Assembly: GCA_008632985.1 (NCBI GenBank)
Contig: QPGO01000145.1
Coordinates: 124,001-188,000, forward strand
Source: Psammoneis japonica
Lineage: Eukaryota
Direction of reading: 5' to 3'
DNA length: 64,000 nt
Shown piece after piece: positions 13,501-64,000 of this stretch (positions are counted from its first letter, which is position 1; each line of letters opens with the position of its first letter). The notes below the pieces were generated by a model. That model saw nothing but the letters and a program-made list of their open reading frames with translations. It was not told the origin of the DNA and ran no database searches. The position numbers and the translations under genes were made by a program.

Positions 13501-13588
13501 GTACATTAATTACCAGCGCAATCCTTATGGATTAAAGATGCAAAGTGTCTCTTACAACTTATCAAAATTCTAACTATTAGGCATTATC

Positions 13589-37513: not shown

Positions 37514-38640
37514 TCCAGAGCAGCTGGAGCTGCTCTCTGTGGGTGTCTGGTCCACCGGGTTTTTTCCTCAATTGAGGCAGCAAAATTGTCCTCAATTGAG
37601 GCAGGTGAAATGCACGGCAGACAGAAAACAACATGCCATTTTGGCAAATGACACGAGAGATGACGATGTCAATTCCATTGTGCAAAGCAGTCTCCACAAT
37701 GACAACGAAGCTGTTTTAATGCTCGTCACACTGCACTTTACATGTGCAATGTGCTTGCCTGCACCAAATTTGAATCCTGATGTCCACAAATTAGCCACAA
37801 ATGTGGGATGCGAAAATGGCCCATCACATTCATAAAAACACTTTTGACACACTTTCAGCCACCGCATCGTCTCACATTCAACACATGTCAATGCACCACA
37901 TGCTTGTCATTGTTGATTGTTGTGTTTTGGTGACACAAATTGACACAAAGATTGTTGATCTTGGTTGTTTGTTGTGACAGCAATTCTGATGCTGCAATCG
38001 CAAACAATGCTTGTTGAAAGCTCATCTGCACACAACAGCGCACTTCTCTTCATTGCAGAGAAGACATCCTGCTGCACACGCAGCACACATTTGCCATCGT
38101 TGCAGACCCAAATTTTTGAGGTGCCATTTTTTTGCGTTTTGCACTTGATCCCTCCTTTTTTCGACTGTCACTTCAATTTTGAGACTCGGGTCACCATTTC
38201 ATGGGAACTTTCTCGTAGATTCTACGACACAAATGGGCGACAGACAGACAAATGTGACAGAAGAGTCCATTTCCATCATCCCCGTGCTTTTTGTGCAGCA
38301 TGCGATGCTGACAATGGCGTGCCGCCGGTGACGCCATTGACTGATTTTTGTGAGATGAAATGCATTGGATGTGTCTTGTGGCGAGCGACAAGCACAGATG
38401 TGCGCCCATGTTGACTCTGGATGCAGTTTGTGGTTGATTTCAGTGCATCATTGTCAATGGCTTTTTTTGCAATTTTCTGCGTGAATTACGTGCAGCAACA
38501 ATGCAGGATGTTGATGACAATGGCATCATCTCAAATGATCGATTAGAGCTGTCAGACAGACACCAGTGAGCCAAATGTTGCATCAGCTGCACTTGTCATG
38601 TTCATGTTGTCACTGCAGCATGCCTGGAACCAGTGTGGAT

Positions 38641-39029
38641 GACGCGTTCCAGCCCCAGGTGGGACTCCCTGTGACATTGGGCCCACAGAATTCCACATGC
38701 GAGCTCCGCAGTGCGAGAATTTAATTGATGGATGTGGTCATCTTCAACATCAAATGAATGGCCAAGTTTGTGGTGCAATTGTGCCTCTTGCCACTCAACG
38801 TTTTTGCAAATGCACCTGCCCCAAGCGATTCTTGGGACATTGTAGAATTGCGCTGCAACAAAAAATGTCAAAAGTTTTTGGACAGATCACTCAACAAGTG
38901 CACCGCAAAATGACACAAAATGTCAAAAAATCAAGTGGAACTCCACGTGCACGACACACAACGAGATTCAAAAAACTGTCGATGTCACAGTTCAGTGGTG
39001 CGAGGTCCCACCTGGACCTGGAACGAGTC
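38641..39029 (+). mobile_element. MITE, hypermutated copy
   Basis: TIRs GACGCGTTCCAG / CTGGAACGAGTC, flanks GGAT / GGAC; colinear with 44834-45222. Confidence 0.9.
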
Positions 39030-44172: not shown

Positions 44173-44649
44173 CGCTGTCAACAGAGAGATGCGGGTCCCT
44201 CAGTGTGGCAGCTGCCTTTCCCCAAAAGTGTCAGCAGTCAACTCTCCACTTTCTCCAACCCGCGAGGTCCCATCACCAACACAGACCTAGAACTTGCCGG
44301 CTGTGTCATCCAGTCCTGCGGTGCCGCCGACTGCTTTGACATCCGTGAACGTGCTGACCTTTCACGCACCGACAATTCAGGCACCATGCGCTGGCAACGT
44401 AAAGGTGCCACCACCACCGTCAAACCCGCCTCCCGGTTGCTTCGACACCAATGCCACCATCAACACCACCATCACCACTTGGGGTTGCATGGCTGCTTGC
44501 CTGGGTGCCTCAACACTGCCGCTGACGATGCCTCCCGCCTGCAGTCTTTATCTGGCCATGAATTCCTGTGCCATTTTAATTTCTGCTATCCGCAGACACT
44601 CTCCTGGCGTCTCTGGACGCCTCCACCAGAGCCGAGTTCATGCGTGATC

Positions 44650-46150
44650 TCAATTCTGCTTAACACGCCGTCCAGCATGGCGTCGCCTCTTCCCGAGCCT
44701 CCGCCGCCAACACCCATTGGGACAAATGGCGAGAGTTCTGCTCCTCTTTGGCCATCGACCCACTCCTCGAAGACATTGACGACCCCGTTGTCTTCCTCCA
44801 AGTCTTCCTGCACCGCCACCGCACAGGAGTCCTGACGCGTTCCAGCCCTAGGTGGGACTCCGTGTGACATTTGGCCCGTAGAATTCTACGTGCGAGCTCC
44901 GTAGTACGAGAATTTAATCAATGGATGTGTCCATCTTCAACATCAAATAAACGGCCAAGTTTGTGGTGCAATTATGCCTCTTACCACTCGACGTTTTTGC
45001 AAATGCACCTGCCCTGCGCGATTTTTAAGACATTGTGGAATCGCGCTGTAACAAAAAATGTCAAAAGTTTTTGGACGGATCGCTCAACAAGTGCACCGTA
45101 AAATGACACAAAATGTCAAAAAATCACGTAGAATTCTACGTGCGCGACATGCGACGAGATTCAAAAAACCATCGATGTCACAGTTCAGTAGTGCGAGGTC
45201 CCACCTAGACCTGGAACGCGTCTCCTCGCGCCGATGGGCAATCCCATCCGTGGAAGAACTGCTGAAGATGCCACACGTTCGGTTGGCCAAACATTCGCTG
45301 CAATGGGGGCCCCGGATCCACGCCACACATCCCAAGGCACAATGGATTTCCGTCTTGCCCGGCAAGTCTGTTTTTACAAGAAGCAGGATCCACCCCCAGA
45401 CCGCACAAAACCTGCCCCAATTGCAGCGCTGCAATGGATTATGACAGCCGCAGCCCTCAGCAATGACCCGGGCACACAAGCTGTTGCTGACATGATTGTA
45501 ATCGCCTTTTTCTTTTTGTTGCGGCCTGGCGAGTGCACCGCAACACCATCCGATGCCACCCCCTTTCGTCTCGCCGATGTCCAGCTTGCGTCCGGTGGTG
45601 CTTGTCTTGTTGCCATGCAAGTTCCACTTGCTCACCTTGACACAGTGACCTTCGCTGCTCTCACATTCACCACCCAGAAAAATGGAGTGCGAGGCGAAGT
45701 TCCAGGGCTCGGTCTTTCCGGTCACCCTCACCTGTGCCCGGTTCAAGCCCTCATCCGCCGTGTCCAACACTTGCGCACCCATGGTGTGCTCCCTGACACA
45801 CCCCTTGGTGTTTGCTTTCAAAACAACACCTGGTGTCGTGTGTCCCTGGCCGACATCACCAGCATGCTTCGCAATGCTGTCACTGCTCTCGGTCCGGCTA
45901 ATCTCGGCTTCATCACCCGAGACATCACCGCTCGGTGTCTTCGTGCCGCTGGGGCAATGGCCCTCCTTTGTGCCCGCGTTGACACCGATCTCATTCAGCT
46001 CTCAGGCCGCTGGCGATCCGACGAAATGTTGCGATGCCTGCATTTGCAAGCAGAACCAGTCATGCGCAACTTCGCTCATGACATGCTCGCCGGTGGCGAC
46101 TTCGTCCTGCACCCCAATGCTGACGTCCCTCAGAATCCTTCAAGACGCCT
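44650..46150 (+). pseudogene. Ngaro tyrosine recombinase, interrupted by a MITE and with catalytic Tyr->Cys
   Basis: Removing 44834-45226 joins HWDKWREFC...HRTGVL to APMGNPIRGRTAED. Also FFFLLRPGEC, TQKNG, LCPV, GRWRSDEMLRCLH (TGC 46035-46037 where Tyr is expected). Confidence 0.88.
44834..45222 (+). mobile_element. MITE, young unmutated copy, 4-bp TSD
   Basis: TIRs GACGCGTTCCAG.CCTAGGTGGGAC / GTCCCACCTAG.CCTGGAACGCGTC; TSD TCCT (44830-44833, 45223-45226). Retains many TA. Confidence 0.93.
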
Positions 46151-48079: not shown

Positions 48080-48305
48080 ACAGCCGACTTTTGGCAATGA
48101 CGTCACTTTCTGGGCTGGTGCTTTCTCTAAAGCGTAAAATTTTGAGGTCTGAGAACAATGTAAGAAAGAATGTAGAGACAAAACAAAAGCATTGTGTCCA
48201 CATTAAACATGCAATGAAGGAAAGCATTTGAGCGAATGCTCCATTGCACAATGCCTTTTCTCTGTTCCTGGATGTGCCTGAAATTGTCATCGGCAGGTTG
48301 CAGGG

Positions 48306-51300
48306 TGACAGGGATCCCACATGCCCTTTTTACATTGGAACCTCATGACCGAAGACAACATGTCTTCAGCCCAGTTCATGATTGAAATTTGCCGATCTTT
48401 CAGAGTGTTTCATCAACCTGTCAGAATCCATCCGACATGGACATCATGTCGATTCTGAGACTGGCTCAGAATCTCTCACAACTTCTAGACAACGCATTGT
48501 CGCAAGGTGCTGCTCCTAGATTTAGCTTTTGGCTCACTCTCTCCTGTTTGTGCATGGACTTGATTCCCAAGACACTCTCAGGCGAGCACCCAGTTCTTTC
48601 CCATCTTCTGTCATGGTTGCAACTCTTCCGGTTTGGTCCAACACGACCGCTTCTTTTAAGCCGAGTGCTGGTTGCGCGTCTCGCAATGCTTCCTCTCGCA
48701 AGCCGTCTTCGCACGCACTTTCTTCGCAAGAAGTTTTCACGGTCCACGGGCGCTCCGTCGATGACATCCCCATAGCCGACCCTCGTGACCGTTGTCACAA
48801 TGTTGATGCTGGATCTGTTGTCCAGCATGCTGGCATGTACACCGCACATCGTCGTCACACTCGTCGCGTGACCCAGGGCGTGCACCACACCCCGACCCGT
48901 CGCATCAAGTGCGCATCTGCACCAATGTCCAAGCCGCCTCCCAAGCCCTTGCAGCAGGCCCCCAGGCGCAACAAGGTCTCAACCCATTGTTCTCAACGTG
49001 CCATCAACCGCATGCTCACTGCCTCTGCCGACCCTGTGGATTTGAGCGCCGTGTTGGCTCATCTGTCTGTGGCCTTTGCAACGGCAAAACCGTCAATTTG
49101 CCCAGGGCCACTTCCGGTGCTTCACAGCCAACTCGCAAGCGTGCCAAGACTGCTCGCCGTCATGCCCAGCGTGCTCTCCATCGCTCCATTGCTTCGGCAA
49201 AATGCACTCCGGCTCCTGCTCTGCCCACACCTGATGAGCTCTGTCTCTCTCGTGTCAAAGCCAACGTCCGCATTGCTCTCAGCGAACGCCTTGCTCAGGC
49301 CCAGGCCCGCGTCGATCGTCTCCAACTGGAGACTGACAAGATCCACTCCAACTTCCGTGTCATGAAGCACTCCCGTGCTCGACTCGACAATTTGTTGGAA
49401 CAAGCCGCCCTTGGTGAATCCGATCTTTTTGACCCCGAGCACAATCTCTGTGACCGCGCGATCCGCAACCAATTGATGGAAGTCAATGACTCTTTGGACA
49501 TTCTGGATGTAGATTTGGACACTTTGCACAACCGCGTTCGGAAACCTTCCGCACCTGATGACCCTGAACCTTCTGCTCACTTTTCCAGGCCGTGACCCCG
49601 TCGACGTCGTGCCAAATCCCAGTTGAGACAATCACTCAAGATGATGCCCAACCAGGAACGCCGCGCCTTGCACTCCCACCGTCGCCGCCATGGCATGTCT
49701 CGATCCGAACCCTTTCACCATCCTGACGCCGATTCATGTTTTCAGCCCGACGCAAGAAAATGTCAAGACAGTGGCCCTCCGCAGTCTCCGCACCCCTCGT
49801 CAGATCAATTCATCTGTGCAACTGTTGAAACCGTCCGTTCTGACCAAGATGATGTTCCGGTTCAAGGGGGGTCTCAACCTGCTGCTGATGACTCGCCACC
49901 CAATGTTGCTGCACCCCTGGGGTCCCCAGAGGCATTCCCTCCACTTTCATCTCCAACGGATCGTGCCACCCCTGCACTCTCACATGTCAACCCATCCTCT
50001 TCAACATCTGCGCCTCACCTTTTTGATGTTGTTGCTCCCATGTTGCACGAAATGGACAAAGCTCTGACAAGGCCCTTGCCTCTCCCTCTCGTGCAAATTC
50101 TGTTGGCTCGTCTGCTCCCCCTGAGTCACACACCTCTGATGCTCCCGATCTCTCCGTGGACGATGACACAACATCAAGTTCGCCTCGCAACCTTCGATGC
50201 TCTTTTTGATGCCCAGCAAGCTCTCGCACCATTTTTCCATCGCAAGAATGAAAATGCCGTTGCGCTTCGCGACACCATTGACTCAACCAAAAACTGTCTT
50301 TTGAGTGCCTCCTTTGCCGTCATCCGGCTTGTGAAGCCAGCAACCTTGCACTTCGTCATTTTCAGGATGTGATGTGCGACGCCGAGTCCCTTTGTCTGGA
50401 ACTCATGTTCCGTCTTGCTCTCACGCCGCGACGACATCCCGCGTCCCCGTCTGACCATCCCTCATCAGCTGACGGCACTGTCTTCCATCATGGTGCGACC
50501 GAGCGCTCCTCGGAATCCTTGTCAAATTCTCTGATGAAGCACGCGTCCCATGCAAACTTGAGCACTCTGAAACACCATCAGAACCACACACGCGATGACA
50601 CAAATTTTGCGCATTTTTGAATGACTTGCGCGGGACCTTTGCATCTTTTCTGGAATTCAATGGCATTCTCAATGACTTTCCTTCTGTCCCTCTTCGCCCA
50701 CTTCCAGACCATGCTGACAGCGCTCTTTGTGCTCTCCTCTGGATGCATGTGGATGCAACGCACCAATCTGACATCTCCGACCTTGCACCCCGCTCTGGCA
50801 AACTTGCTCTCGAGGAACTCCAATTGCGGTGCATGCCCATCACCCAGGAGCACAGCAATTGCTGTTCCAACAACTGCCTGCAGGTCTTCCGCAACTCCGA
50901 CGAGTCCGCAAGCAGCTTCATCCAACACTTTGAGCGAAAACTCTGAAACCACAAAAACGCCGGCCTCCCGGTCAAGACTGATGTGGAAATTAGCACCCCA
51001 TTTTCTCAGCCAAATGGGCAGCCATCCTCGATGCGATGCATCGATCAAGCAATTCGAACCCGAATTCTGCACTGCCGCCATCTCTCCATTGCCTCCGCTC
51101 CTCACTTCAAGGACATCCGGCAAACTTTTTATGACATTGACGAGCAGCATCACAACCAGCAGCATCGTGACCGTCTTTCAAATGGCTCTCGCTCCCGCTC
51201 TCACAACAACCACGCTCATCTTGCTTCCGCCAAACGCAATCCTTGGAATGCTCCTCGACAGCAACGCCAACAACGTTGCCCACCCCTGCCTGGCGCAACC

Positions 51301-54300
51301 GAGATCTGCGACCACTGTGGAAAGTGCAACCACAATGCGCCAAGTGTTGTTCTTGCCTCTGCGATTTGAAGAATGGCGCGCCCAAGGAAAACCCTGCTGC
51401 CAAGCCTCCTCACGACCTGAGCAAAATCACCTGTTTTCACTGCAAGAAAAAGGGTCACCTTCATCCAGATTGTCCCGAGCTTGCAAAGGACGCAAAACAA
51501 ACCGCTCTTGCGGCCACTGCACCCACCATGCATTGCCAAGCAACGGCACCTCCACCAAACGGCCAAATCATTTTCTGTGTCACTCACACTGACATGGAGG
51601 ACACTCACTCTTTTGTCTCCTCCTCCTCAGACTCCACCCCGCCTCTGGAATCATGCCACATTTCCTTCGACGACGATTCCTCGGCCGACTCCTCCAACAG
51701 TGACACCATTGCATCCTCATTGACTCATGGAACAATGCCAACATTGTCCCTCCAGGACCTTCTTGCTGACACTGATTCGACTCATGGCAACAACATCTCA
51801 TCCGCCAGCTTGGCCTCCTCTGGTCCGCCGCCTCTTGCATTTCATGACCGAGACTCCAGCACGGAATCTTCACTCACTGTGCCGTCTTTGCTTGTCACTC
51901 AAGCACACCCGACAACACCACGGCCTCCACTTTTGGTGCACCGCCTCCCGGGCACTCTGCTGCGGCACCCCCTTTCTGCTTTGACTGCCACGACACTTTC
52001 ACCATGGAATCTTTTGCCACCAGGCCCACTGCAGTCTCTGATGATGACAACGACTCCGTCATCTCTGACATCAGCTTCGACCTCATGGATGCAGCCGACA
52101 CTGCCCCCTGTCACCCATGCAACACCTCTGCTGATCACGTTCAAATTGCATGCATGGCCGATGATCCCAGTCAATGCCAACCTCAACAAATGCCCCGCGA
52201 CACTGACCTCACCGACATCTGCAGTTGGTTTGTTGACTCTGGTGCTTCATCTCACTTCGTCCGTCATGACTCACTCGACAACAGTGCCCCCTGCCACGTT
52301 CCTGTTGTGATTGCCGACGGCACCACAGTCCATGCCACGACAGTCGGATCCGTCACTTTGCACTTTCAGGATGACCAAGGACACCCGGTCAACCTTGTCC
52401 TTGATCGTGTTCATCACATCCCGGGGCTCAATCGGAGCTTGTTCTTGGCACCCTCCTTCACGGCCAATGAACTCTTCAACATCCGAATCACCACCAACAT
52501 CACGACGCTCGATTTTGGCAATGGGCACACTTTCAGTTTCCCGACACTCCGTCACAAGCGCTCCTGTCACAATGCCACCACTGACACAGCACCGACATCC
52601 ACTGCTGACCCCATTTTGATGGAAACAACCGACACCCAGAGCTCCTTGAAACCGATGACTCTTGCAATCGACCTTGACCTTGCAGGCCGCCGTTTCAGTT
52701 GTCGCTCCTCTCAGAGTCTTTTGGCAGGCACAGTTGGCAAAGTTTGGTGCGACTGCCACATTGCCCCCAGGACTGACAACTGTCTGGACAATGCGCGCAT
52801 CACCATCTCACGAAAGCTCAACCGCGCCAAGTGTGACCCGACTGAACCCACACACACATTTTCACGTGTGTTCATGGATGTAATTCCCAACCCTCGCACA
52901 GTCGCACTCACCCCAAAAACGTCTTTTCCCTGCCATCTCTTTTTGGCAACTCACAAAGGACACTGCTGCAGTGTTCGTGGTCTCGAGAGTCCATCATCTG
53001 GCAATGTCATCACCGCATTTAAATCATGGATGACCGACGCACAATCCCAGGGACAAGTCCAAGACATGAACTTCATCCGCGCTGACTCCGCGCAACATTT
53101 CCTGTCCTCCGAATTTCTCGCCTTTGGGGAAGACAATGGCATCAAGGTCGAGGTCGCCGCTCCACGACACCAGGAACAAAATGGAGTCGCTGAACACATG
53201 TGGCAGGTTGTCAGCAACATGATCCGCTGTCTGCTTGTCAACGCACGGCTCTCGGCACACTTCTACCATCATGCATTTGTTCATGCCGTCGCCATCCTGA
53301 ATGTCCTCCCAGCTAAAGGCACACGGCTGCCTGATGGCTCTTCAGCTACGCCGCACTTCCACGCATTCAACAAACTCCCCAAGATTGGCAACTTCCGTGT
53401 TTTTGGATGCCCCGTCACTTTTGACAGATGCCAACCCCTCAACCCAGAAACTCGTCGCCCGACCACCACCCAACAACAGATTCAATGTCGATCTTGATGC
53501 ATCCACATCGGTTTTGCACCAAACCAAGCTGGGTGCCTCATTCATGTTCCCGAGGGCATCGGCACCAAGAATCTGATTGTTGTGTGCGACGCTGTTTTCG
53601 ACGAACTATTTGATTCGTCTCTCGTTCATGACCACGTCCCTTTCTCTGGTGCCCTCCCGATCTGGAACATCTCCAACAATGCCTCTGGTCTCAAGACACA
53701 CAACAAGACCCCAGCAGATGAACATGCGGGCACCATTCAAGATTTCTTTGATGTTGACTCACCCCCTCCTTCCTCCACTCTCGCCAAAGCGCCTCCGGAC
53801 TCCGACAAATCCGATTCGGACCCACCGTCTCCTGCACCTGCTGCAACCGGCCTCAGACGAGCTGCTCGCATCAACGCCGGCCACCGCACATCCATGCGCT
53901 TCGCAGATGAAGAGCAGCTGTGTGCCATCTCCTCCACTCCCCCAGTCGACCTCCTCGAGCAAACTCTCTTCGATGACTCGCCAGCCATGGAATCTGTGCA
54001 CAGTGCCTTGATCGAATCTCCTTGGCCTGACCACAACTGGCATCAATGCCCGGATCCTTTGCAACAAGCTTTGGAAGCCGTCAAGGCCACCACTTCAACC
54101 CCCATTGATGACTGCTCACCCGTTCCTCGCTCTTTTCGAGCCATCCTCAGACAACCTCCCGCGATTCACGATGCCTGGCTGCGTGCTGTCCGATCCGAGC
54201 TCAAGAACCTCACAGTGGACAATGAAACCTTTGCTCTTCACGAATGTCCCCGTCCAGACGATGAGATCATCGGCACCACCCTTGCTCTCCGTGCCAAAGA

Positions 54301-56177
54301 GAAATCCGACGGCTCTCTGGAGAAACTCAAGGCTCGATGCTGCGCGCGCGGCGACGTGCAACGCAAATCAGCCGATGACGACAATTGGTCTCCAAATGCA
54401 TCCTCTCGTGCCATCAAGCTCTTTCTAGCCTTTGCTGCGAAGGCCAAACGACACGTCAAGAATGGTGACTTTGTCGGTGCTTACCTTCAGGCCCCAGCTC
54501 AAGGCCGTCTCTTTGTCCGCTTCAACCCAATTCTGAAGCAACACTTTCCCGAGCATGCCGAACATTTTGGTGTGCCCCTCCGCCTCAAGAAGGGCATGTG
54601 CAGGACCATCCGCAGCAGTCTTTGGTGGTCCACCGAGCTCTCCGAATTTTGCTTGCCAAGGATGCACCAATTCCAAGGCAGACCCCACCTTCTTCGCCAA
54701 GCACTTCCCTGACGGCTCACATGTCAAGCTCATCTTCTGCACGGACGACATCATCTGTTTTGGGTCTCACGATGGAGTCGAGAAGGATTTTGAGAACCTC
54801 GTACGATCCAGGCACAACATTGCATTCAACGGTGACGTCACCTGGTTCTTGCAAATGTGCATTCACCGATGCGCCGATGGCTCCTTCTCTCTCGACCAAC
54901 ATCGATGCATGCGCAATCTCCTCAAGCGGTTTCTCACTCCCAACTCACCTTGGGGCAGCCCCAGCTTTCAGGATGCTCCAGCTCTCGTTGATTGTGTGCA
55001 CTCCAAGTTGAATCAACCCAAGGATGCCGTCAAATCCAAGCAAATTGCAAACAAGTGTCCCGGACTCCATTTTCGCTCCGCTGTCTGCTCCATCCTCTAT
55101 CTCGCTTGCAACACTCGCGCTGACATGCTTTGGATCACCTGCAAACTTGCAAAGGCTTGCACCAACCCCGGCATGAAAGATTTCGATGCTCTCATTCATC
55201 TTTTTGGCCACCTCCACAAACATCAAGACCTTGCCATCAAATTTTGTTCCGGTCCCACCATGAGCCCTGTTCACGCGATTTGCAAAGCTCACAATGTCAG
55301 TCATTCTGAATTTGTGGTCTTCACTGATGCCAGCTGGCAAGACTGTCCGGACACCGCTAAGTCAACTGTTGGATTTATGGTCCACTTCAATGGGGCAACA
55401 GTGGAAGCCAATTCCACTGTCCCAACTCCTGTGGCAATGTCCGCCGCCAAATCCAAGTGGATGGGTGCCTGCACTGGTGCTGTGGCTGTCACTCACCTGC
55501 GCATGTTGGCACACGACTTCACCTTCCTTGGCACCCGCCACTGCTCCATTGACTCCCAACGCCTCTCCACTGCTCCCACCATCCTCATGTTGGACAACCA
55601 AGCAGCAGCCCAAATGGCCCAAAATGACCAACAGACTTGACGAACCTGACACATCGAGTGACGTTTCCAATGTGTCCATGAAGGCCAGTGCCTTGGTCAT
55701 CACTTGCTTGTTTGGGTCCCTGCTGAAAGTCAATTGGCGGACTGCCTCACCAAAACTCAATGTGCAGACAAAATTTGGGTCATGGTCGACCGTGTCCCAT
55801 GGCGTCTCCCTGCACACATGTTGTCATGAGCTTCTTGTCATCTTCCCTCATTCGGTTCAAGGGGGGTGACAGGGATCCCACATGCCCTTTTTATGTTGGA
55901 ACCTCATGACCAAAGACAACACATCTTCAGTCCAGTTTGTGATTGAAATTTGCCGATCTTTCGGAGTGCTTCATCAACCTGTCAGAATCTGTCTGATCTG
56001 GACATCATGTCAATTCTGAGACTGGCTCAGAATCTCTCACACAACTTCTGGACAACGCATTGTCGCAAGGTGCTGCTCCTGGATTTAGCTTCTAGCTTGC
56101 TCTCTCCTGTTTGTGCACAGACTTGATCACCCAAGACACTCTCAGGCGAGTGCCCAGTTCTTTCCCATCTTCTGTCA
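48306..56177 (+). mobile_element. Full-length Ty1/Copia LTR retrotransposon (CoDi-like), hypermutated
   Basis: LTRs 48306-48613 and 55867-56177 (TGACAG...CTGTCA); TSD CAGGG; PPT AAGGGGGG. Gag knuckle CFHCKKKGHLHPDC, protease WFVDSGASSH, integrase IRADSA..EQNGVAE, RT ARCCARGD / DFVGAYLQ / IFCTDD, RNase H FTDASW, in PR-INT-RT-RH order. Confidence 0.95.
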
Positions 56178-56650
56178 CAGGGGCACACGTGTGGACACTT
56201 TGAACTTGAGAGGAAGTTCGCATTGATGTGACAGGTGCCAGGATTGGAACCACATGAACAACTCTTTCGAGCTGTTGCAACAAATCCAATGCTGACTCTT
56301 CCTGAATTGCCAGCACCGAAACGGTGAAAGAAGAAATCACTCTCAAAAGGCGGGTCGTTGAAACATTGTTCGTGCAGCCCCCAAAAACAATTCGAAAGCA
56401 TGTAAAAATTTGTGGCACTTTTGCAAGCATCAGAGCAAGAAGAAGCACCAAGTCTTGCACAATGAAACTAAAGAAATTGCTTCACTTTCTTTCCTTTGCC
56501 GTCTTCTTCCCCGTCTCTCACTTCGTCCTTGACCCGAGCAATGCTGGCAGCATCCACCACAACCATGCCCACTGTGTGTTCATGGTCAGCTCCCAAGAAT
56601 TCCTGACTCTTGATGGCTGTGGCAATGGCACTTGCCGGGTTCGGATGGTG
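56178..56650 (-). pseudogene. Inverted duplicate of the Sec63 3' end and downstream intergenic DNA
   Basis: The minus strand reads AIKSQEFLGADHEHTVGMVVVDAASIARVKDEVRDGEE versus the intact AIKSQEFLGADQEHTVDAVVVDAASITRVEDEVSDGEE. It resumes for ~23 bp at 61694-61716 after the Gypsy. Confidence 0.9.
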
Positions 56651-59600
56651 TGCAGCATGCCTCGCTGCTGGACAACACGGCGAGACCGTGCATGAGCCTC
56701 TTGTGCGTGGCAACGCAGTGTTGTCAACACACACCTGGGAAGCACGACCACAGGAGGGTGTGGCTCCAGGTCTTGGGCAATTCCAGAAGGATGCTAAGAG
56801 AGCATCCGTGTGAAGCACACCAGCCCGTCGTCTGGCCCACGATGGCAGCGTGATTCCACACGATGACATCACTCGTGCACAGCGCGTGATGGCTTGATTC
56901 GCACGATCCACAATGCGAAGGCACAATCGATTTGATGCGATCCAAATGCGAACAAATGGGGATTTGGCAAGATTCCCCATTTGCACGATCCCACTTTCTC
57001 CACTCCAAACTGGCTCACAATTTTCACAACGACAAAGTCGCAACACATCTTCTTTTTCAGCGCCTGGCACATGCATGGGGCACAGCGACATTGCTCCCGC
57101 ATGTTGTGCGAGGTGACGAAATCTGCAGAAACGAAACTGCGAAATGTTGGTGGGACCGACAAATCTTAAAACGACCATGAAGAAGCGGATTGAGCCACCG
57201 ATTCCGTTCGCACGGCCGGAGAAGAAAGAGCTGCAGCAAGGCGAGTGCCAGACGTTCAAGCTGCGCAACAACCCTGCCAATCCGGATGGTCCAACGCACG
57301 AGATGGGCATTCCGCACCTTTCTGCGGCTGCATGCGAGACACTCCCAATCTTTCTGCACAACGTGGATCGCGTGCATGAAGGACAAAACATCACGGCTGG
57401 GCCAGCGAAATTTGCCCTCATGCGTGACCCACTGCAGGGCGATGCTCTGACGTCATTTGACAGTGCCGCTGACAAGCAGGCATCTCAAACCAACGCCACG
57501 TGCACAGCATGCGTCGCGAAGCTAAAGGAAAGCATCTTCCCACACAGGGCGGTGCCATTGCAGAAGCATTGTCTGAGGCGCTTCACGCGCAAGCCCGCAG
57601 AGGTTTCCACTCGTGACTGCATCGCGAGGGCTGTTGAAATTAACGGCTGTGTCTCTCAGTTTCCACCCATGACGGAGGATGGAGAAGCACCGGCACCATC
57701 ACCCAATGACGAACCATGCGACATGTTCGAGCACAGTGTGCCAAACGCATGGCAGAAGTTCATGACGCCACAGAATTTTGACCCGTTGGCGCACACTGTC
57801 GCCGAATTTGCACAGTTCTGCGAGCGCATCGAGCAGGTCGAGCTTGCTGAAGGTAACCTGGACCAACACACTAAGGTCCCACGCAAGCGGGGACGTAGAA
57901 CGGACAATCCTGAGTCGTTGATCACGACCCAACGGAACACCCAGAAGTCGTGCATGCTGCACGGGACCAACTGTGGACATCATGCGGAGGATTGCCGTCA
58001 GCTCAAGCACCACGCAAAACGTGTCAAGACTGGACATTCCAATGACGGAGGGCAGCAAACCTGATGCAAAACCTCGGAATGAGGAAGACATTGACACTCT
58101 CATCGGATCGAAGGTCGAGGAGTTCTTTGCCAACGCTCAGAAAAAACGCAAGGCACGCGAGGAGGAGCTCAATCACTTCCGCGACCTCAACTTAAGTGAT
58201 TCCGAAGATTCGGACACCTGAGAAGGGGGGCCGACACGACACAGGCACTTTTAACACATCAGATGAATGTATAAATGAACAACTGAATTACCATCGTACA
58301 CGTGTTGTAGGCCAATCCCGCAAACGAGTTAAAAAGACTCATCTTACTCCAATCTTGTTTATAGCTATGAATGCTAAACATGGCAAGGGCAAGACTCAAA
58401 CCATTAAGGCACTACTAGATAGTGGCGCCAGCAGCACTCTACTCGACAGTCGATACTGTAAACGTCTGCGAAGCCATTCAACGGCTGAGACAAACTGGAC
58501 TACGGTAGCAGGCTCGTTCAGTACGTCTAACGACTGTACCGTTAAATTTCGGTTACCAGAATTATCCGAAACGGAAACCGACCGGATTTCGCGTATTTTA
58601 GACGCTAAGTACGCGCCGGCCTGCCTCGAGGACATAACGCGAGGGGCAATAGAATTTTCTATTGTTCAACAAAACGACCTTTTGGCACTATAGAAACGCC
58701 ATGAGTCCTTATTTGATGGGACATTAGGAGAATGGAAGGGAGAACCCTACCATATCCAACTCAAGGAGGGTGTAGAACCATACCACGCTCGTCCGTATAA
58801 AGTACCTCGTGCGTACGAAGCTACGCTACGTAAAGAAGTAGAACGCCTAGTGCGCATTGGTGTTCTCAAACGCGTTAACCGATCCCAATGGGCAGCTCCA
58901 TCATTTATCACACCGAAGAAAGATTTAACGGTGCGCTTTATTAATGATTTGAGAGAGCTGAATAAACGGATCAAGCGATTGCCTTGTCCGATTCCTGATG
59001 TCCAAGACATGCTGCTTGAGCTCGAAGGCTTTATGTGGGCTGCATCGCTGGATTTAAATGCAGGCTGTCATCACATCCGATTGGATGCTGACAGTGAGAA
59101 GCTTTGCACGCTCATCTTCCCGTGGGGCAAGCATGAGATGCAGGCATTGCCCATGGGATTGTGCAACTCGCCAGACATTTTCCAAGAACGCATGTCAGGC
59201 TCATTTGAAGATCCATGGTTCGTTCGAACGCACTTAGATGACCTTCTCGTCGTGACGAAAGGCACCCATGAAGATCACCTCAACAAACTTGAAGAAGCTT
59301 TGTTGAGGGTCCAGAAAGCAGGACTAAAAGTTGACGCAACTAAATCTCACTTCTGTCAAACCCAACCAGAGTGCTTGGGCTGTCTGGTCAACAGAGACGG
59401 AACGCGACCAACACCTGACAAAGTGGACGCCATTGAGCGAGTCGCGACCCCAGCCAACAAACGCGACCTGCGCTCATTTGTTGGCATGGCGAATTGCTGC
59501 CGTGATGCGTGGATCAGACATTCTGAAGTCTTGGCTTCGCCAACACGACTCGCAAGCAAGACTGTCAAGTGGGAGTGGACGTCCATTGAAGACGAGGCGC

Positions 59601-61693
59601 TCGAAACCGTTGAACGGGTGACATCGGATGATGTTTTGTCGTCACATCCTGATTTTGACAAACCCTTTGAGACACATGCCGATGCCTCTAAATGTCAATT
59701 GGGAGCAGTTGCACCCCAAAATGATGAACCTGTCACCTTTTGCAGCAGAAAGCTCAACAGCGCGCAATTAAATTGTGCAACAACGGAGAGAGAATTGCTC
59801 GTCATTGTGGAAATGTTGAAAGAATTTCGAATGATTCTCCTTGGTCATCGCATGATTGTGTGTGCTGATCATAAAAATCTTGCATGCAATGCGGCCCCGA
59901 ATTACGCTGTGTTGAGGGCACCCACAACCCAGTCGCTGACGCTCTTGGTCGCCTTCGACTGGCACCCAGCTTGCCTTCCGAGGCCAATCCGGATGTAAAC
60001 GACACACCATCGAGTCATCCTTTGCATGAAGCTTTTAATGCAGACGCGCAAGATGAGATGTCTCTGCCCATTAGCTTCAAGCGCATTCAAAAAGCACAAC
60101 AAAAGGACAAGCGCCTACTCTCACGAGCTAAGGACTCGTCCGACTACTCCATTCGCGCGTGTCGTGGGGGAGGGTCATCACGACAGTTAATCTGTCATAA
60201 GGACAAAATCGCAGTACCACAGTCATTGCAGGTTCCGCTAACTGAATGGTGCCACGAGACACTGTGTCATCCAGGTGAGACACGTACGGAAATATCTATT
60301 GCCCAGCACTTCTATTGGCCTAGTATGAGGTCTACGGTGCATTCTACGTGCGTTAAGTGCGATCGATGCCAGAAGACAAAACGCCGAACGCAGCGTTATG
60401 GGAAGCTACCAGAAAAGGTCGCAGAGATAATTCCATGGGAGACTCTATGCATAGATATGATGGGGCCATATAAAATTCAAAGACGCGGAAAGGACACTTT
60501 GCAATTATGGGCAGTCACAATGATTGACCCAGCAACCGGGTGGTTCGAGATTAAAGAAGTGTCTACGAAACGCGCAGACGTCGTAGCAAACGTCGTGGAA
60601 CAAACGTGGCTATGCAGACATCCGTGGCCAACCCAGGTGGGTTTATGACCGTGGGACAGAATTTATGGCAGAATTTAGCCAGATGATTAAAAATGACTAT
60701 GGGATTTTGAAGAAACCCCTAAGTAAACGGAATCCACAGGCGAATGCCATAGTGGAACGTGTACACCAGACACTTGGTAACATGGTACGTTCCTTTTCAG
60801 TACAGAATATGGAACTGGACGAAGATGACCCATGGAGTGGCATCCTCTCCGCAGTAGCCTTCGCTATTAGAGCTACGGTACATACGACCACGCGTGCAAG
60901 TCCCATGCAATTGGTCTTCGGACGCGATGCGGTTTTTATCTATTGCCTATCGTGCTAAGTGGAAGTACATGGAAACCAGAAAGCAGAAGCTTATCCACTT
61001 TTAAACAACCAGCGTGAAAATCAGAAATGCAAGAAGTGTCAATATACCGTAGGGCAATTGGTACTTATCAAACAGGAACAATCCTCTAAATACGGTTCTG
61101 ACAGCTATGCAGGACCCGCCAGAGTTGTCTGTGTATATGACAACGGCACGTTGCGTGTCCAGAACGGAGCGCTGATAGATACGTACAATCTACGGCAGAT
61201 TGTACCCTATCACCAGTAAGACATCCTGTCACTTTTAACGGCCCTGATCATGGGGGAGTGTGCAGTATGCCTCGCTACTGGACAACACGGCGAGACCGTG
61301 CATAAGCCTCTTGTACGTGGCAACGTAGTATTGTTAACACGTACCTGGGAAGCACGACCACAGGAGGGCGTGGCTCCAGGTCTTAGGCAATTCCAGAAGG
61401 ATTTCAAGAGAGCATCCGTGTGAAGCACACTAGCCCGTCGTCTGGCCCACGATGGTAGCGTGATTCCACACGATGACATCACTCGTGCATGGCGCGTGAT
61501 GGCTTGATTCGCACGATCCACAATGCGAACGCACGATCGATTTGATGCGATCCAAATGCGAACGAGTGGGGATTTGGCAAGATTCCCCATTCGCACGATC
61601 CCACTTTCTCTGCTCTAAACTAGCTCACAATTTTCACAACGACAAAGTCGCAACACATCTTCTTTTTCAGCGCCTGGTGCATGCATGGGGGCA
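56651..61693 (+). mobile_element. Ty3/Gypsy LTR retrotransposon, partly hypermutated, with internal deletions
   Basis: LTRs 56651-57082 and 61261-61693 (TG...CA); TSD GGTG; PPT GGGGGAG. Gag 57177-58220 (CMLHGTNCGHHAEDC), protease LLDSGAS, RT WAAPSF..PKK / DLRELNK / LPMGL, RNase H DAS..LGAV, integrase H..LCHPG..CDRC / CIDMMGP / NPQANAIVERVH. Confidence 0.95.
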
Positions 61694-61716
61694 GGTGCTC
61701 AAAACTGCACATTGAG

Positions 61717-63200
61717 ACAACCTTCTTCTTGGCATGACCCCATGTGCTCATGAGCTGTGGCTTGCATTTGTTGTTTCCTGCATGCATTTGGCAAGAAGCT
61801 CCATGTGGCACCCTGGGGCCTCCTTTGTGTGCTTTTGGCATGACTTGATCCTTTTGTGCAGGTGCAGCACTGCAGTGAGATTTTCACAAGAACTTGACAG
61901 CAGTCTTTTGATCAACAAAGAGTCTGTGCTGCCTCACAAGACTGTTGTCACAGCTGTCCCCACCAACTGCTTTTCGGCACATGTGGCTTTTGTTGTCACA
62001 CCACCAGTGCACACCACATGCAAATGTGGGAGGGCACTCATTGTCCTTGAGTGCCTTGGCAAGTTTGGCTTTGCGGCGCTGTTGACTTTTTTTCTCTTGC
62101 TTGAGCATTTGCAAAACACAAGCGCAAATCACACGTTTTGCCTGTGCGCTGCCTTTGTCCTTGCTGCCAGTCCAGTGATGAGGAAGGGCCAGTAGATTCT
62201 CTTGGGCATTTCTTGCTGTTTTCATGGTCTCCCTCTTGTTTGAAGGTGCAGGAGCAAAAACAATGGCAGCAGCTGGGTTCTGCCAAAAGAAAGAGTTGAA
62301 ATTGGGTCAGCTGATGAGTTGCACCACATGAAACTCATGTTGTCATTTTGACCACAATGAGAGCAATCAGAAAACAAGCAGTTTGAAGCAAGGTTTGCAT
62401 GTGACAGGATTGGCCCTCCACAAGCAGCAACAATGTTGTCAACTTGCAACTCAGTTCAACTTGTGGTCAAGAATCTCCTCTCAGCATCATCCAAAGTGAG
62501 CGACAGTCATGTGTTGCAATTGCAGAGCTTGCGCCACATCAAGGTTAATTGGGCTGTGAGAACTTGTCCCTGCATGTGTCCAGCACCTGCTCTGTGTGGC
62601 AGCTTGCACTCTCTGACATGCTTGCAAACCCCCTTGGCTGTGTGTGAGTGGAGTTGCAGAAGGAGCGCCCATCTGTGCAAGGTTTCTAGCTGCACCTTTT
62701 TTCTTCTGCTGTGTTCTCACTGTCAGTTGCTGCCAGCACCAGCCTGACCAAGTCTGTTCCCTCTGTCTGTTTGGTGGGCCATGCTCTTCAATCAGGCTGA
62801 TGCTGGTGGTGACAACAGATGAGTGGCCCAGTGGAGAAAGTTCATAGAGTCATCAGACAGATGGGAAAAGTGGCTGAGTTCTCCTTTGCCAATCCCACAA
62901 ATGACTGGGGGGAGAGTGACTGCTGGGCTTGTGGGACATGAAGCTGACTCTGAAGTTGCCAAACTCTGAAGTCTTTGACTGCTTTCAAAAACATCCAAGT
63001 GTGCTCTTGTCACATCTGAATCTTGGTGCAGAGGGGAGCCATTCTCCTTTTTTTGTGCACTTGCCAGAGAGCATTGCACTTCATGCTGGCTGTTCAAGTC
63101 CAAAGGCTGCTGCTCCTTCTTCTTCATTGTGGCAAAACAAGAAGTGTCACTCACAGTTTTTCCTTGTCTGTGCAACACCGCAAGTGAGACCACATGCCCC
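61717..63200. repeat. Unclassified TpA-depleted repeat/TE relic
   Basis: Near-absence of TA up to a sharp boundary at ~63.2 kb. No domain recognised. Confidence 0.45.
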
Positions 63201-63588
63201 ATCTGCATGATCCTTGAACGGCTGCACTTCTTGATGGGAGATTTCTAGGACATCGCCCGTAGGGTGTAGTAGGATGGTCCCCAAGGACACTCTACCGGAA
63301 ACGGCATCCGGAACACGGATGAAAATTATGGTAAATGCGCTAATGCGGTGGATTTCATGGTCATTGACATGGCGGCTGCCACCACTCCCATTATTTTTAC
63401 CATGAAACTGTGTCCCACTGCTTGCTTGGGAGGAAAAAGGTACAATATTGCTATAGTTGCCAGTTATTAAACGCTTGGTTCTTACAATGCTGCCACTAAC
63501 CACCTTTCTGAAGCGTGGACGACAAACGCACTGTAGTGCTTGTGTCTCTACCTTGCCTCTCTCTTGTAGTCTATGTCTGCGATACTGT

Positions 63589-64000
63589 CTAGTCGCTTTC
63601 GACTTTCTTTTCGGTTTCAACATTTACTGATAGCTTTTCTGCCATCGACTTTTCCACCTGGGCGACACCATTGTCAGAGTTGTCGGAAGTGGCATTATCG
63701 CCCTCTGCAACTGCATCATTTTTTGATTCTGTCTCTTGAAGATACCTTTCATACTGCTTGATCATCATATCGGCCCAATAGCGGGCAATCAATAAACGAA
63801 CGATTCGCCGGTCTCCTCTAAAGCTCGGTCCAGTCGCCGTGGCATCATCCGGATCGCGTTCTTGACCAGCATCCGCATCACCCGCTTGTTCCTCTTCGTC
63901 GTCGTCGTTGTTGGACGCAGAAGTCGACGGACCACGCTCTAACAGTTTGGGTCCTCCCAGTGTTTTCAATCGTTCCAGCCATACGGCAAGCACTTGTTCA
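63589..64000 (-). CDS. 3' end of an unknown host gene entering from beyond the window
   Basis: Open frame to the window edge with normal Tyr/TA content and acidic low-complexity segments. Confidence 0.5.
   Translation of the reverse strand, partial: EQVLAVWLERLKTLGGPKLLERGPSTSASNNDDDEEEQAGDADAGQERDPDDATATGPSFRGDRRIVRLLIARYWADMMIKQYERYLQETESKNDAVAEGDNATSDNSDNGVAQVEKSMAEKLSVNVETEKKVESD

What the first reader, a model, noticed from the sequence alone, without database searches (positions are those of the whole stretch)
56651..61693. The two Gypsy LTRs give a direct before/after record of the mutation
LTRs are identical at insertion. In the first ~200 bp I count 11 TA sites of the 3' LTR, and all are TG or CA in the 5' LTR: CAGTAT->CAGCAT, GCTAC->GCTGC, CATAA->CATGA, TGTAC->TGTGC, CGTAG->CGCAG, AGTAT->AGTGT, GTTAA->GTCAA, CGTAC->CACAC, CTTAG->CTTGG, ACTAG->ACCAG, GGTAG->GGCAG. 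Beyond these there are two CpG transitions and little else. The changes therefore arose after integration, on both strands, and hit one LTR far more than the other.
Basis: seen in the sequence. Interest (0 to 1): 0.9.

Follow-up and report, generated by a model that had tools for sequence, protein, structure and literature searches.

The report
TA-erasing hypermutation recorded in diatom LTRs
In this diatom DNA, mobile elements have had almost every TA step rewritten to CA or TG after they inserted, and the two end-repeats of one young Gypsy element preserve the before and after states side by side.

Summary
The element is a Ty3/Gypsy retrotransposon at 56651-61693 with TG..CA ends and a 4-bp target duplication (GGTG). 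An empty-site allele exists in reads of the same sample. Its LTRs differ at 29 of 432 aligned sites. At 13 sites the 3' LTR has TA where the 5' LTR has CA (7) or TG (6). No TA is shared.

The polarity is TA->CA/TG, not RIP-like. In the TA-free stretch of pol, 14 of 14 conserved Tyr codons read TGY, CAY or ATG. None of 83 mismatches at conserved residues fits CA/TG->TA.

The asymmetry is tract-wise, not LTR-wise. 62% of the window (transposons and spacers) has TA o/e 0.01-0.12, in sharp-edged tracts. One edge lies inside the 3' LTR, between 61457 and 61490. Where both LTRs are TA-free, three CA-versus-TG doublets point to independent erasure. Two other LTR pairs in the window and one marine metagenome Gypsy copy show the same signature.

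The only precedent found is a 2026 preprint on TpA hypermutation in the chlorarachniophyte Bigelowiella natans. I read this as a new, saturating case of that process in a diatom. Assembly mosaicism and gene conversion are not excluded.

The parts
56647..56650 (+). Left target-site duplication GGTG
   Evidence: The same 4 letters occur at 61694-61697. The X1 contig joint 56646->61694 has 4 letters that fit both sides.
56651..57082 (+). 5' LTR (432 bp), TA-free: 1 TA, o/e 0.05-0.13
   Evidence: Alignment to the 3' LTR; composition.
57083..61260 (+). Internal region of the Ty3/Gypsy element. It holds an unassigned first ORF, then protease, RT, RNase H and the integrase zinc domain, broken into six frames.
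   Evidence: Pfam hits PF13650, PF00078, PF17917/PF17919 and PF17921, in that order, on the + strand; ORF list. No rve core domain was detected.
61261..61693 (+). 3' LTR (433 bp). The first 196 bp are TA-normal (11 TA). The last 237 bp are TA-free (2 TA, o/e 0.14).
61694..61697 (+). Right target-site duplication GGTG
56651..58192 (.). TA-free tract 1 of the element, continuous with the TA-free left flank
   Evidence: TA positions; HMM segment 45501-58200, TA o/e 0.08.
58193..59055 (.). TA-normal tract (o/e 0.93) covering the protease and the start of RT
   Evidence: Tyr codons are kept here.
59056..60035 (.). TA-free tract 2 (RT/RNase H). Its left edge is located to within 11 bp: TA is kept at 59055 and the Tyr codon at 59066 reads TGT.
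   Evidence: All family contigs covering 59214 and 59333 read TA.
60036..61456 (.). TA-normal tract (o/e 0.87-0.91) running from integrase into the first 196 bp of the 3' LTR
61457..63245 (.). TA-free tract 3: the end of the 3' LTR plus the right flank. The edge lies between 61457 and 61490.
   Evidence: An X3 contig (61406-61565, 2 other letters) bridges the edge.
38640..39029 (+). Upstream copy of a second long direct-repeat (presumed LTR) pair, TA-free (2 TA, 15 CpG)
   Evidence: Against 44833-45222 there are 43 differences: 15 TA-in-downstream-copy against 1 the other way, and 4 doublets. CpG counts are 15 against 28, with all 15 shared.
44833..45222 (+). Downstream copy of the second pair, which keeps 16 TA and 28 CpG
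48303..48613 (+). 5' LTR of a Copia element, TA-free
   Evidence: The Copia domains PF22936 and PF07727 lie between the two repeats.
55864..56177 (+). 3' LTR of the Copia element, TA-free. There are 7 CA/TG doublets against its partner.

Best explanation
The window comes from a diatom genome in which a DNA-level process converts TpA to CpA or TpG (an A:T->G:C transition at 5'-TA-3', on either strand). It acts in mobile-element and spacer DNA but not in the host-gene blocks. It works after integration, runs to near-saturation, and leaves sharply bounded tracts.

The Gypsy element at 56651-61693 is a young insertion that is not fixed. It has so far been converted in three tracts: the 5' LTR plus 1.1 kb of interior, about 1 kb in RT/RNase H, and the last 237 bp of the 3' LTR. 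The first 196 bp of the 3' LTR lie in an unconverted tract, so the LTR pair shows 11 (13 overall) ancestral TA beside their CA/TG products.

Shown: the signature, its polarity, its strand symmetry, its post-integration timing, its restriction to transposon/spacer DNA, and a co-located extra loss of CpG.

Inferred: the process is enzymatic. The leading candidate is deamination of adenine in the TA context, as proposed for Bigelowiella natans. The targeted domain may be a methylated or silenced chromatin state that spreads in from already-silenced flanks. Because TA is its own reverse complement, A->G by adenine deamination cannot be told from T->C through a modified thymine.
For: Signature: 13 of the 13 TA in the 3' LTR are CA (7) or TG (6) in the 5' LTR, and 0 TA are shared. 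In the permutation control the maximum was 8 of 13 in 200,000 trials.

Polarity: in the TA-free pol tract, 14 of 14 consensus-Tyr codons read TGY (9), CAY (4) or ATG (1). In TA-normal tracts 4 of 7 are kept as Tyr. At conserved residues, 30 of 66 (TA-free) and 5 of 17 (TA-normal) mismatches fit TA->CA/TG, and 0 of 83 fit the reverse. Of the 14 displayed read rows inside the element, 5 show window CA|TG against family contigs TA, all in TA-free tracts. At 59214 and 59333 every covering contig (8 and 15) reads TA. Two rows show window TA against one contig TG, both in a TA-normal tract.

Post-integration timing: where both Gypsy LTRs are TA-free there are 3 CA-versus-TG doublets. If these had been CpG, the coincidence has p = 0.015. 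The Copia LTR pair, TA-free in both copies, has 7 doublets. A second pair has 15 TA-in-one-copy against 1.

Scale: window TA o/e is 0.27. 39.6 kb are TA-free (o/e 0.01-0.12) and 24.4 kb are normal. Transposon ORFs in TA-free tracts have 0-1 Tyr per 315-549 aa, while host genes have 1.4-4.1% Tyr. Host genes lie in the normal blocks.

Real DNA: X1 contigs at single-copy depth (about 51-59) match the TA-free flanks (62875-64000, 0 other letters; 62502-62815, 2; 61715-62453, 10). An X3 contig bridges the tract edge in the 3' LTR.

Elsewhere: 1 of 77 marine metagenome Gypsy loci (L011) is TA-poor. Against its siblings L001 and L002 it has 54 sibling-TA/L011-CA|TG sites against 3 the other way. Of 75 sibling TA sites, 34 are CA, 20 TG and 16 kept.

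Precedent: TpA->TpG/CpA hypermutation was measured in mutation-accumulation lines of B. natans (10.64898/2026.01.13.699255; abstract, Results and Discussion read).
Against: No other copy of this Gypsy family could be aligned at the 13 LTR sites themselves. The window holds none, no whole genome is held, only 40 of 437 read-difference rows were displayed, and a metagenome scan with an LTR word found nothing. Polarity at the LTR sites is therefore inferred from the adjoining coding tracts and from the doublets.

Runs X1-X3 are from one sample that may be the source of the assembly, and their library type is not on record. They are not independent. At 59214 and 59333 no X1 contig shows the window's own letters.

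Tract edges are sharp (11-34 bp). That also suits gene conversion, template switching or an assembly mosaic.

In the single-copy flanks the allele without the element has lost 6 CpG relative to the window and gained none. My model does not predict this.

No enzyme, chromatin or methylation data exist here.
Confidence: 0.72

Rival explanations
1. The hypermutation is real but did not happen in this copy. On this view, ectopic gene conversion between converted and unconverted family copies pasted tracts together. Copy-choice recombination during reverse transcription could do the same for the interior. The LTR pair would then compare two different copies rather than before and after.
For: Tract edges are sharp: 11 bp at 59055/59066 and 34 bp at 61457-61490. 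Tract lengths of 0.86-1.4 kb are in the range of conversion tracts (recalled). The family is highly repeated: summed contig depth is 10,000-44,000 against about 55 for single-copy flanks.
Against: Template switching cannot make the two LTRs differ, because both are copied from one template (established retrotransposon biology). The TA-free tracts at both ends of the element are continuous with TA-free flanks. Differences outside the TA and CpG classes are few and similar in the two halves of the LTR: the 3-bp cluster at 56793-56795 in the first 196 bp, against 2 sites in the remaining 236. The doublets show independent erasure in both LTRs. Two further LTR pairs show the same pattern.
Confidence: 0.12
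2. The mosaic is an assembly or polishing artefact. On this view the local copy is TA-free throughout, and the TA-normal tracts were written in from reads of other, unconverted copies. The LTR asymmetry would then be spurious, although the mutation signature itself would stand.
For: There are hundreds of near-identical copies. The tract edges are sharp. The TA-free tracts adjoin the unique flanks. The window's own letters are not seen in X1 contigs at 59214 and 59333.
Against: The interior TA-free tract 59056-60035 is a rare variant that was not overwritten by the family majority. A contig of run X3 (61406-61565, 2 other letters in 160) spans the normal-to-TA-free edge inside the 3' LTR. 1024 of the 5404 laid X1 contigs are 99% or more alike to the window. 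The window holds no N.
Confidence: 0.08
3. The DNA really has TA at these places, but a modified base in silenced DNA is misread (for example by a nanopore base-caller, or by polymerases), so the TA-free tracts are a read-out artefact.
For: The TA-free tracts coincide with transposon and spacer DNA, where base modification would be expected. The library types of the runs are not on record.
Against: X1 contigs built from 31-letter words, at depth about 51-59, reproduce the TA-free flanks with 0-10 other letters per 314-1126 nt. That is hard to obtain from error-prone reads. The same signature occurs in an unrelated public metagenome contig, L011. The B. natans mutations were called from Illumina reads of mutation-accumulation lines.
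Confidence: 0.03
4. RIP-like C->T at CpA created the TA in the 3' LTR and in the TA-normal tracts, so CA/TG is the ancestral state.
For: The difference between the two LTRs is, taken alone, symmetric in direction. RIP in fungi produces exactly CpA->TpA (recalled; named in the preprint's Discussion).
Against: 0 of 83 mismatches at conserved pol residues fit CA/TG->TA. The only stop in frame is a TAG at a consensus Leu, not at Gln or Trp. TA-normal tracts match conserved residues better (106 of 123) than TA-free tracts do (136 of 202). Transposon proteins in TA-free tracts lack Tyr. In the displayed rows, family contigs read TA. In L011 the TA state is shared by all sibling copies.
Confidence: 0.02

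Closest known systems
TpA hypermutation of integrated viral DNA in Bigelowiella natans (Mettrop et al., bioRxiv 10.64898/2026.01.13.699255, 2026; abstract, Results and Discussion read)
   Same: The changes are almost exclusively A:T->G:C, and only at TpA, giving TpG or CpA depending on the strand. The process is confined to foreign or mobile DNA and spares ordinary genes. The long-term trace is TpA loss with CpA+TpG gain. TpA-poor coding sequences there are enriched in DDE endonuclease and reverse transcriptase domains.
   Different: The host is a diatom (stramenopile), not a chlorarachniophyte (rhizarian). The targets shown here are LTR retrotransposons, a PIF/Harbinger-type transposase remnant and spacers, not giant-virus or virophage inserts. 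Conversion here is saturated (o/e 0.01-0.12 over 62% of the window) and has edges sharp to 11-34 bp, whereas the viral region there still has Rho 0.45. Extra CpG loss is co-located here. Ongoing activity was measured there in mutation-accumulation lines; here it is only inferred from LTR pairs and an unfixed insertion.
Repeat-induced point mutation (RIP) of Neurospora and other fungi
   Same: It is a DNA-level, post-integration, dinucleotide-specific transition process on both strands that wrecks repeats and can run to saturation in tracts (recalled; compared in the preprint's Discussion).
   Different: The direction is opposite. RIP turns CpA into TpA and lowers GC. This process removes TpA and raises GC. 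RIP creates stop codons; this process removes TAA and TAG, which leaves long open frames. Dependence on duplication was not testable here.
APOBEC3 (G->A) and ADAR (A->G) editing of retroelements before integration
   Same: These are deaminase-driven hypermutation of retrotransposons. ADAR prefers a 5' U before the edited A (as stated in the preprint's Discussion; PMC4866542 seen only as a search listing).
   Different: Those edits occur on RNA or cDNA before integration, so both LTRs would inherit them. They are also strand-specific. Here the LTRs differ, both strands are hit equally (15 CA: 15 TG over 30 LTR events), and DNA-transposon remnants and flanks are affected as well.
5-methylcytosine deamination at CpG in methylated transposons
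   Same: It also ends in CpA/TpG and is seen in the same tracts. The TA-free copies lost CpG (26 against 32 in the Gypsy LTRs, 15 against 28 in the second pair) while the TA-keeping copies lost none. Old TA-free tracts have CG o/e 0.23-0.55.
   Different: It acts on C, not on A or T, and is slower. In the Gypsy 5' LTR 13 of 13 TA are lost but only about 6 of 32 CpG. It cannot explain the loss of TA.

Membership tests
TpA-specific A:T->G:C hypermutation of foreign DNA (B. natans type) | Changes are A->G / T->C transitions only | tested here: met
   20 of the 29 differing LTR sites belong to the TA<->CA|TG class or to CA/TG doublets. For L011 against L001, 54 of 95 differences are sibling-TA to CA|TG. 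The rest are CpG transitions and a low background.
TpA-specific A:T->G:C hypermutation of foreign DNA (B. natans type) | Only TpA is hit, giving TpG or CpA depending on the strand | tested here: met
   13 of 13 TA in the 3' LTR are changed in the 5' LTR. Outcomes over three LTR pairs are 15 CA: 15 TG. Consensus Tyr codons read TGY (9) or CAY (4).
TpA-specific A:T->G:C hypermutation of foreign DNA (B. natans type) | Confined to foreign or mobile DNA; host genes are spared | tested here: met
   The TA-free segments hold the Gypsy, Copia and DDE_Tnp_4 remnants and spacers. The blocks 10.2-17.3 kb and 19.6-31.3 kb, which carry the LHC, SerRS, BipA, ADH and DnaJ/Sec63 genes, have TA o/e 0.49-0.51 and normal Tyr content. 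This covers one 64-kb window only.
TpA-specific A:T->G:C hypermutation of foreign DNA (B. natans type) | Acts on chromosomal DNA after integration | tested here: met
   The LTRs of one element differ. There are independent CA-versus-TG outcomes at one site in both LTRs: 3 in the Gypsy pair, 7 in the Copia pair and 4+2 in the second pair. Caveats are gene conversion and an assembly mosaic.
TpA-specific A:T->G:C hypermutation of foreign DNA (B. natans type) | Currently active, at a rate orders of magnitude above background | not testable with these tools
   Only indirect support is available. An empty-site allele exists in the same sample, so the insertion is unfixed, yet its LTRs are 6.7% apart. 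They are 2.1% apart without the TA class and the doublets.
TpA-specific A:T->G:C hypermutation of foreign DNA (B. natans type) | Responsible enzyme (an ADAT2-like adenine deaminase is proposed there, unproven) | not testable with these tools
   No whole genome is held. No deaminase domain was found among the 139 ORFs of 120 aa or more scanned or the six Gypsy frames scanned.
Fungal RIP | C->T at CpA (gain of TpA, loss of GC) | tested here: not met
   0 of 83 mismatches at conserved residues fit CA/TG->TA. TA is lost, not gained.
Pre-integration editing of retroelement RNA or cDNA (ADAR, APOBEC3) | Edits are shared by both LTRs and confined to one strand | tested here: not met
   The LTRs differ at 13 TA sites, with 7 T->C and 6 A->G on one strand. 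A DNA-transposon remnant and the flanks are also TA-free.
Ty3/Gypsy LTR retrotransposon (the carrier element) | LTRs with TG..CA ends, a short target duplication, and the order PR-RT-RNase H-INT | tested here: met
   The integrase core domain was not detected, and the reading frame is broken into six frames.

The most novel reading that the evidence does not exclude
Diatoms may carry a dedicated genome-defence system that finds newly inserted mobile DNA by its chromatin state and rewrites every TpA within a sharply bounded domain. The agent would be a DNA adenine deaminase, or an equivalent thymine-modifying route. It would act fast enough to saturate kilobase tracts while the insertion is still polymorphic. 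Its presence in both a stramenopile and a rhizarian would make it an old, widespread counterpart of fungal RIP with the opposite polarity. It would also be a natural double-strand-DNA A-to-G editor with TA specificity.
Probability: 0.4. Interest if true: 0.9.

Novelty: new member of a known kind. Interest (0 to 1): 0.8.

Why it matters
- **A second lineage, at larger scale.** TpA-specific hypermutation of foreign DNA has so far been reported only once, in a 2026 preprint on a chlorarachniophyte. Finding it at saturating strength in diatom transposons would show that it is neither a peculiarity of one alga nor limited to viral inserts. It would argue for a widespread eukaryotic genome defence that pushes A:T to G:C.
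- **A natural experiment.** LTR pairs fix the starting state, the timing (after integration), the strand symmetry and the context of the change. That makes the process testable genome-wide without mutation-accumulation lines.
- **LTR dating.** LTR-divergence dating in diatoms would be inflated about threefold at this element (29 differing sites, 9 without the TA class and doublets).
- **Transposon annotation.** Transposon proteins lose all Tyr and become hard to recognise. No Pfam family was found in the ORFs between the second repeat pair.
- **Composition.** Regional GC and dinucleotide content are reshaped.
- **The enzyme.** If an enzyme is responsible, it would be of interest as a TA-specific A-to-G editor of DNA.

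Tried and rejected
- **Whole genome:** none is held for this window. 'All LTR pairs in the genome' and a family consensus could therefore not be done.
- **Other copies in the window:** there is no other copy of this Gypsy family.
- **Metagenome scan:** a 26-base LTR word gave 0 matches.
- **Protein search with the RT frame:** the best relatives are at most 62% identical, so there are no same-family copies in that collection.
- **Earlier findings of this scan:** four look-ups returned nothing on this genome and only unrelated phage items.
- **tRNA scan:** no tRNA genes were found. I did not identify the primer-binding site.
- **Sequencing runs:** no RNA holder was listed, so nothing can be said about expression.
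- **Read laying:** this was limited to one call. Only 40 of 437 difference rows were shown, and none fell on the 13 LTR sites.
- **Strand-coordinated clusters (kataegis-like):** the order of CA and TG outcomes along the LTRs shows no long runs (read from the list; 7 runs in 15 events for the second pair, about 8.5 expected, hand calculation). Rejected.
- **Transcription-coupled targeting:** rejected, because the 5' LTR U3 region is converted while the 3' LTR U3 region is not (inference).
- **Dinoflagellate origin and 5-hydroxymethyluracil:** this was my first guess. It was dropped when the host genes matched diatoms at 72-80% identity.
- **3'-neighbour preference of the edited A:** G/C was chosen over A/T at 7 of 8 informative sites. 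That is too few to claim.
- **Literature for diatoms:** searches found no report. A 2025 diatom transposon preprint (10.1101/2025.10.24.684338, term search only) has no occurrence of dinucleotide, hypermut, RIP or deaminase.

Full report
**The object.** The two repeats align over 432 columns with 29 differing sites and one single-base gap. Between them, on the + strand, lie frames with protease, reverse transcriptase, RNase H and integrase zinc-finger domains in the Ty3/Gypsy order. They are broken into six pieces. A contig of sequencing run X1 joins 56646 directly to 61694. Four letters fit both sides, and record 2 (565 nt) is laid as 514 + 51 letters with nothing between. This is the empty insertion site. 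It also shows that the insertion is not fixed in the sequenced sample. Summed contig depth over the element is 10,000-44,000, against about 51-59 on the single-copy flanks, so the family is highly repeated.

**The observation.** All 11 listed sites are there, and two more lie at 57006 and 57012. The 3' LTR has 13 TA and the 5' LTR has 1. None is shared. The 13 read CA (7) or TG (6) in the 5' LTR. Placing 29 differences at random hits 1.7 of the 13 TA on average and never more than 8 in 200,000 trials. The remaining differences are:
- 3 adjacent double differences of the form CA against TG;
- 5 sites where the 3' LTR has CG and the 5' LTR has CA or TG;
- a 3-bp cluster at 56793-56795;
- 2 further single substitutions (56920, 56956).

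**The context changes the picture.** The whole window has TA observed/expected 0.27, with CA at 1.39 and TG at 1.49. The TA that remain are not spread evenly. 84 of 320 bins of 200 bp have none (variance/mean 4.7). A two-state segmentation gives 39.6 kb with TA o/e 0.01-0.12 and 24.4 kb with 0.38-0.93.

The normal blocks at 10.2-17.3 and 19.6-31.3 kb carry host genes: a light-harvesting protein, seryl-tRNA synthetase, BipA, an alcohol dehydrogenase and DnaJ/Sec63. The synthetase is 72-80% identical to those of Chaetoceros, Skeletonema, Thalassiosira and other diatoms. The TA-free segments carry the Gypsy element, a Copia element, a DDE_Tnp_4 transposase remnant and unannotated spacers.

Inside the Gypsy element the tracts alternate:

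| Tract | State |
|---|---|
| 56651-58192 | TA-free |
| 58193-59055 | TA-normal |
| 59056-60035 | TA-free |
| 60036-61456 | TA-normal |
| 61457 onward | TA-free |

The first 196 bp of the 3' LTR therefore lie in a normal tract. Its last 237 bp are TA-free as well: 2 TA against 14.4 expected, P = 4e-4 if o/e were 0.85. The LTR asymmetry is a tract edge, not a property of the LTRs.

**Polarity.** I aligned 120 related pol proteins to the element by tblastn and compared each codon with the residue most homologues share.
- In the TA-free tract all 14 consensus-Tyr codons are TGY (9), CAY (4) or ATG (1). In the normal tracts 4 of 7 are still TAY.
- Match to well-conserved residues is 136 of 202 in TA-free tracts and 106 of 123 in normal tracts.
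- Of the mismatches, 30 of 66 and 5 of 17 can be reached from a codon of the consensus residue by TA->CA/TG changes alone. None of the 83 can be reached by the reverse change.
- The only in-frame stop in the aligned part is a TAG at a consensus Leu.
- Transposon frames in TA-free tracts have 0-1 Tyr in 315-549 residues with raised His and Cys, whereas host genes have 1.4-4.1% Tyr.
- In the few read rows displayed, family contigs read TA at five places where this copy has CA or TG, all in its TA-free tracts. At 59214 and 59333 all 8 and all 15 covering contigs do so. One contig reads TG at two places where this copy keeps TA in a normal tract.

**Timing.** LTRs are copied from one template and are identical at integration (established retrotransposon biology), so their differences arose in the chromosome. 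The CA-against-TG doublets add to this. In the part where both Gypsy LTRs are TA-free there are three. They are what one ancestral TA gives when each LTR loses it independently. If they had been CpG instead, all three losses in the 3' LTR would have to coincide with losses in the 5' LTR (p = 0.015).

Two other repeat pairs in the window repeat the result.
- The Copia LTRs (48303-48613 and 55864-56177) are both TA-free and have 7 doublets among 27 differing sites.
- The pair 38640-39029 and 44833-45222 has 15 TA-in-one-copy against 1, plus 4 doublets. A third related fragment near 18.9 kb gives CCCAGA where the other two read CCTGGA and CCTAGA.
- Over the three pairs the outcomes are 15 CA: 15 TG, so both strands are hit equally.

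**Extra CpG loss.** The TA-free copies have also lost CpG where their partners have not: 26 against 32 in the Gypsy LTRs, and 15 against 28 in the second pair, with none unique to the TA-free copy. Older TA-free tracts have CG o/e 0.23-0.55.

**Is it real DNA?** X1 contigs at single-copy depth reproduce the TA-free flanks: 62875-64000 with 0 other letters, 62502-62815 with 2, and 61715-62453 with 10, mostly CpG sites. A contig of X3 spans the tract edge in the 3' LTR (61406-61565, 2 other letters).

The runs are from one sample that may be the assembly's source, and their library type is not on record, so this is not independent support. However, contigs built from 31-letter words at such depth argue against a base-calling artefact.

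Independent data come from marine metagenomes. Of 77 Gypsy loci fetched with a Tyr-poor homologue, one, L011, is TA-poor (o/e 0.29). Against its nearest siblings L001 and L002 it has 54 sites where the sibling has TA and L011 has CA or TG, against 3 the other way. Of 75 sibling TA sites, 34 are CA, 20 TG and 16 kept in L011. The other 76 loci show no 500-bp window with TA o/e below 0.15.

**Mechanism.**
- Shown: a TpA-specific A:T->G:C change, on either strand, after integration, saturating within tracts. The tract edges are located to 11 bp (59055/59066) and 34 bp (61457-61490). The change is restricted to mobile and spacer DNA and is accompanied by faster CpG decay.
- Inferred: an enzyme does this. 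Adenine deamination in a 5'-TA context is the leading candidate, as proposed for B. natans, where an ADAT2-like protein was named but not tested.
- Not distinguishable from sequence: because TA is palindromic, A->G on one strand cannot be told from T->C on the other, so a thymine-modification route is equally compatible.
- My inference only: the TA-free tracts at both ends of the element continue into flanks that were already TA-free (the empty-site allele is TA-free too). The extra CpG loss also fits. Together these suggest that the target is a silenced, methylated chromatin domain spreading inward.

**Rivals that remain.** Two alternatives could explain the sharp mosaic: gene conversion between converted and unconverted copies, or an assembly or polishing mosaic in a family with hundreds of copies. 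Several points speak against them:
- the interior TA-free tract is a rare variant that was not overwritten;
- the X3 contig bridges an edge;
- the doublets;
- the low and even background divergence.

None of these is decisive without single long reads.

**Comparison with what is known.** Six full-text searches found one precedent: Mettrop et al., bioRxiv 2026, on Bigelowiella natans (abstract, Results and Discussion read). In that study:
- 230 of 231 mutations in two integrated viral regions of mutation-accumulation lines were A->G or T->C;
- all of these GC-directed changes fell on TpA;
- the rate was about 1000 times the background;
- a class of TpA-poor coding sequences was enriched in DDE endonuclease and reverse transcriptase domains.

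The preprint does not mention diatoms, and no search found the signature reported for diatoms. The present case meets the sequence-level defining features (transition type, TpA context, both strands, foreign DNA only, post-integration). It differs in host lineage, in targets and in degree: saturation over most of a 64-kb window, sharp tracts and co-located CpG loss. It is the opposite of fungal RIP in direction. It differs from ADAR or APOBEC editing of retroelements in acting after integration and on both strands.

**Verdict.** I file it as a new member of a very recently described kind. It is of high interest because the LTR pairs turn the process into something that can be measured genome-wide.

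Noticed in passing
window 1-64000: 62% of the window (39.6 kb) has TA o/e 0.01-0.12, with CA and TG at 1.4-1.9. With TAA and TAG nearly absent, all six frames hold long open frames (145 ORFs of 120 aa or more), which would mislead gene callers.
   Followed up: yes
window 56133-56646 and 61715-62453: The empty-site allele in X1 differs from the window's flanks mainly at CpG. At 6 sites the window has CG and the allele has TG or CA; there are none the other way. At 2 sites the window has CA or TG and the allele has TA. The one-sided CpG difference is unexplained.
   Followed up: partly
window 38640-46555: This is a long element bounded by direct repeats (38640-39029/44833-45222 and 39544-39737/46362-46555, with unequal spacing of 6193 and 6818). 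None of its ORFs of 120 aa or more hits any Pfam family. It may be a transposon degraded beyond recognition by the same process. Related fragments lie at 17.9-19.0 kb in the TA-free spacer between two host genes.
   Followed up: partly
window 3-269 vs 13432-14252: The start of the window repeats parts of the alcohol-dehydrogenase gene region at 85-88% identity, which looks like a duplicated gene fragment.
   Followed up: no
window 6810-8275: There are tandem arrays of units of about 150-190 bp (families D1 and D5). They sit next to the DDE_Tnp_4 remnant at 8235-9308 and have intermediate TA content (o/e 0.38).
   Followed up: no
window 2001-5000 and 41001-56000: GC skew is strongly negative (-0.2 to -0.49) over several kb of TA-free DNA. 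The cause is not known.
   Followed up: no
L011 (1-1112) vs L001, L002: A marine metagenome contig carries a hypermutated copy of another Gypsy family: 54 TA->CA|TG against 3 the reverse way, relative to its siblings. Two of the 120 related pol proteins (P0007, P0110) are Tyr-poor (0.7% and 1.3%, against a median of 3.9%).
   Followed up: partly
LTR pairs, 30 events: At sites where the two strands offer different 3' neighbours, the edited A was followed by G or C rather than A or T in 7 of 8 cases. This is a weak hint of a TAS preference.
   Followed up: partly
window 61616-61625: Two TA, 5 bp apart (TCTAAACTAGC), survive in the otherwise TA-free end of the 3' LTR. Both are converted in the 5' LTR.
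   Followed up: no
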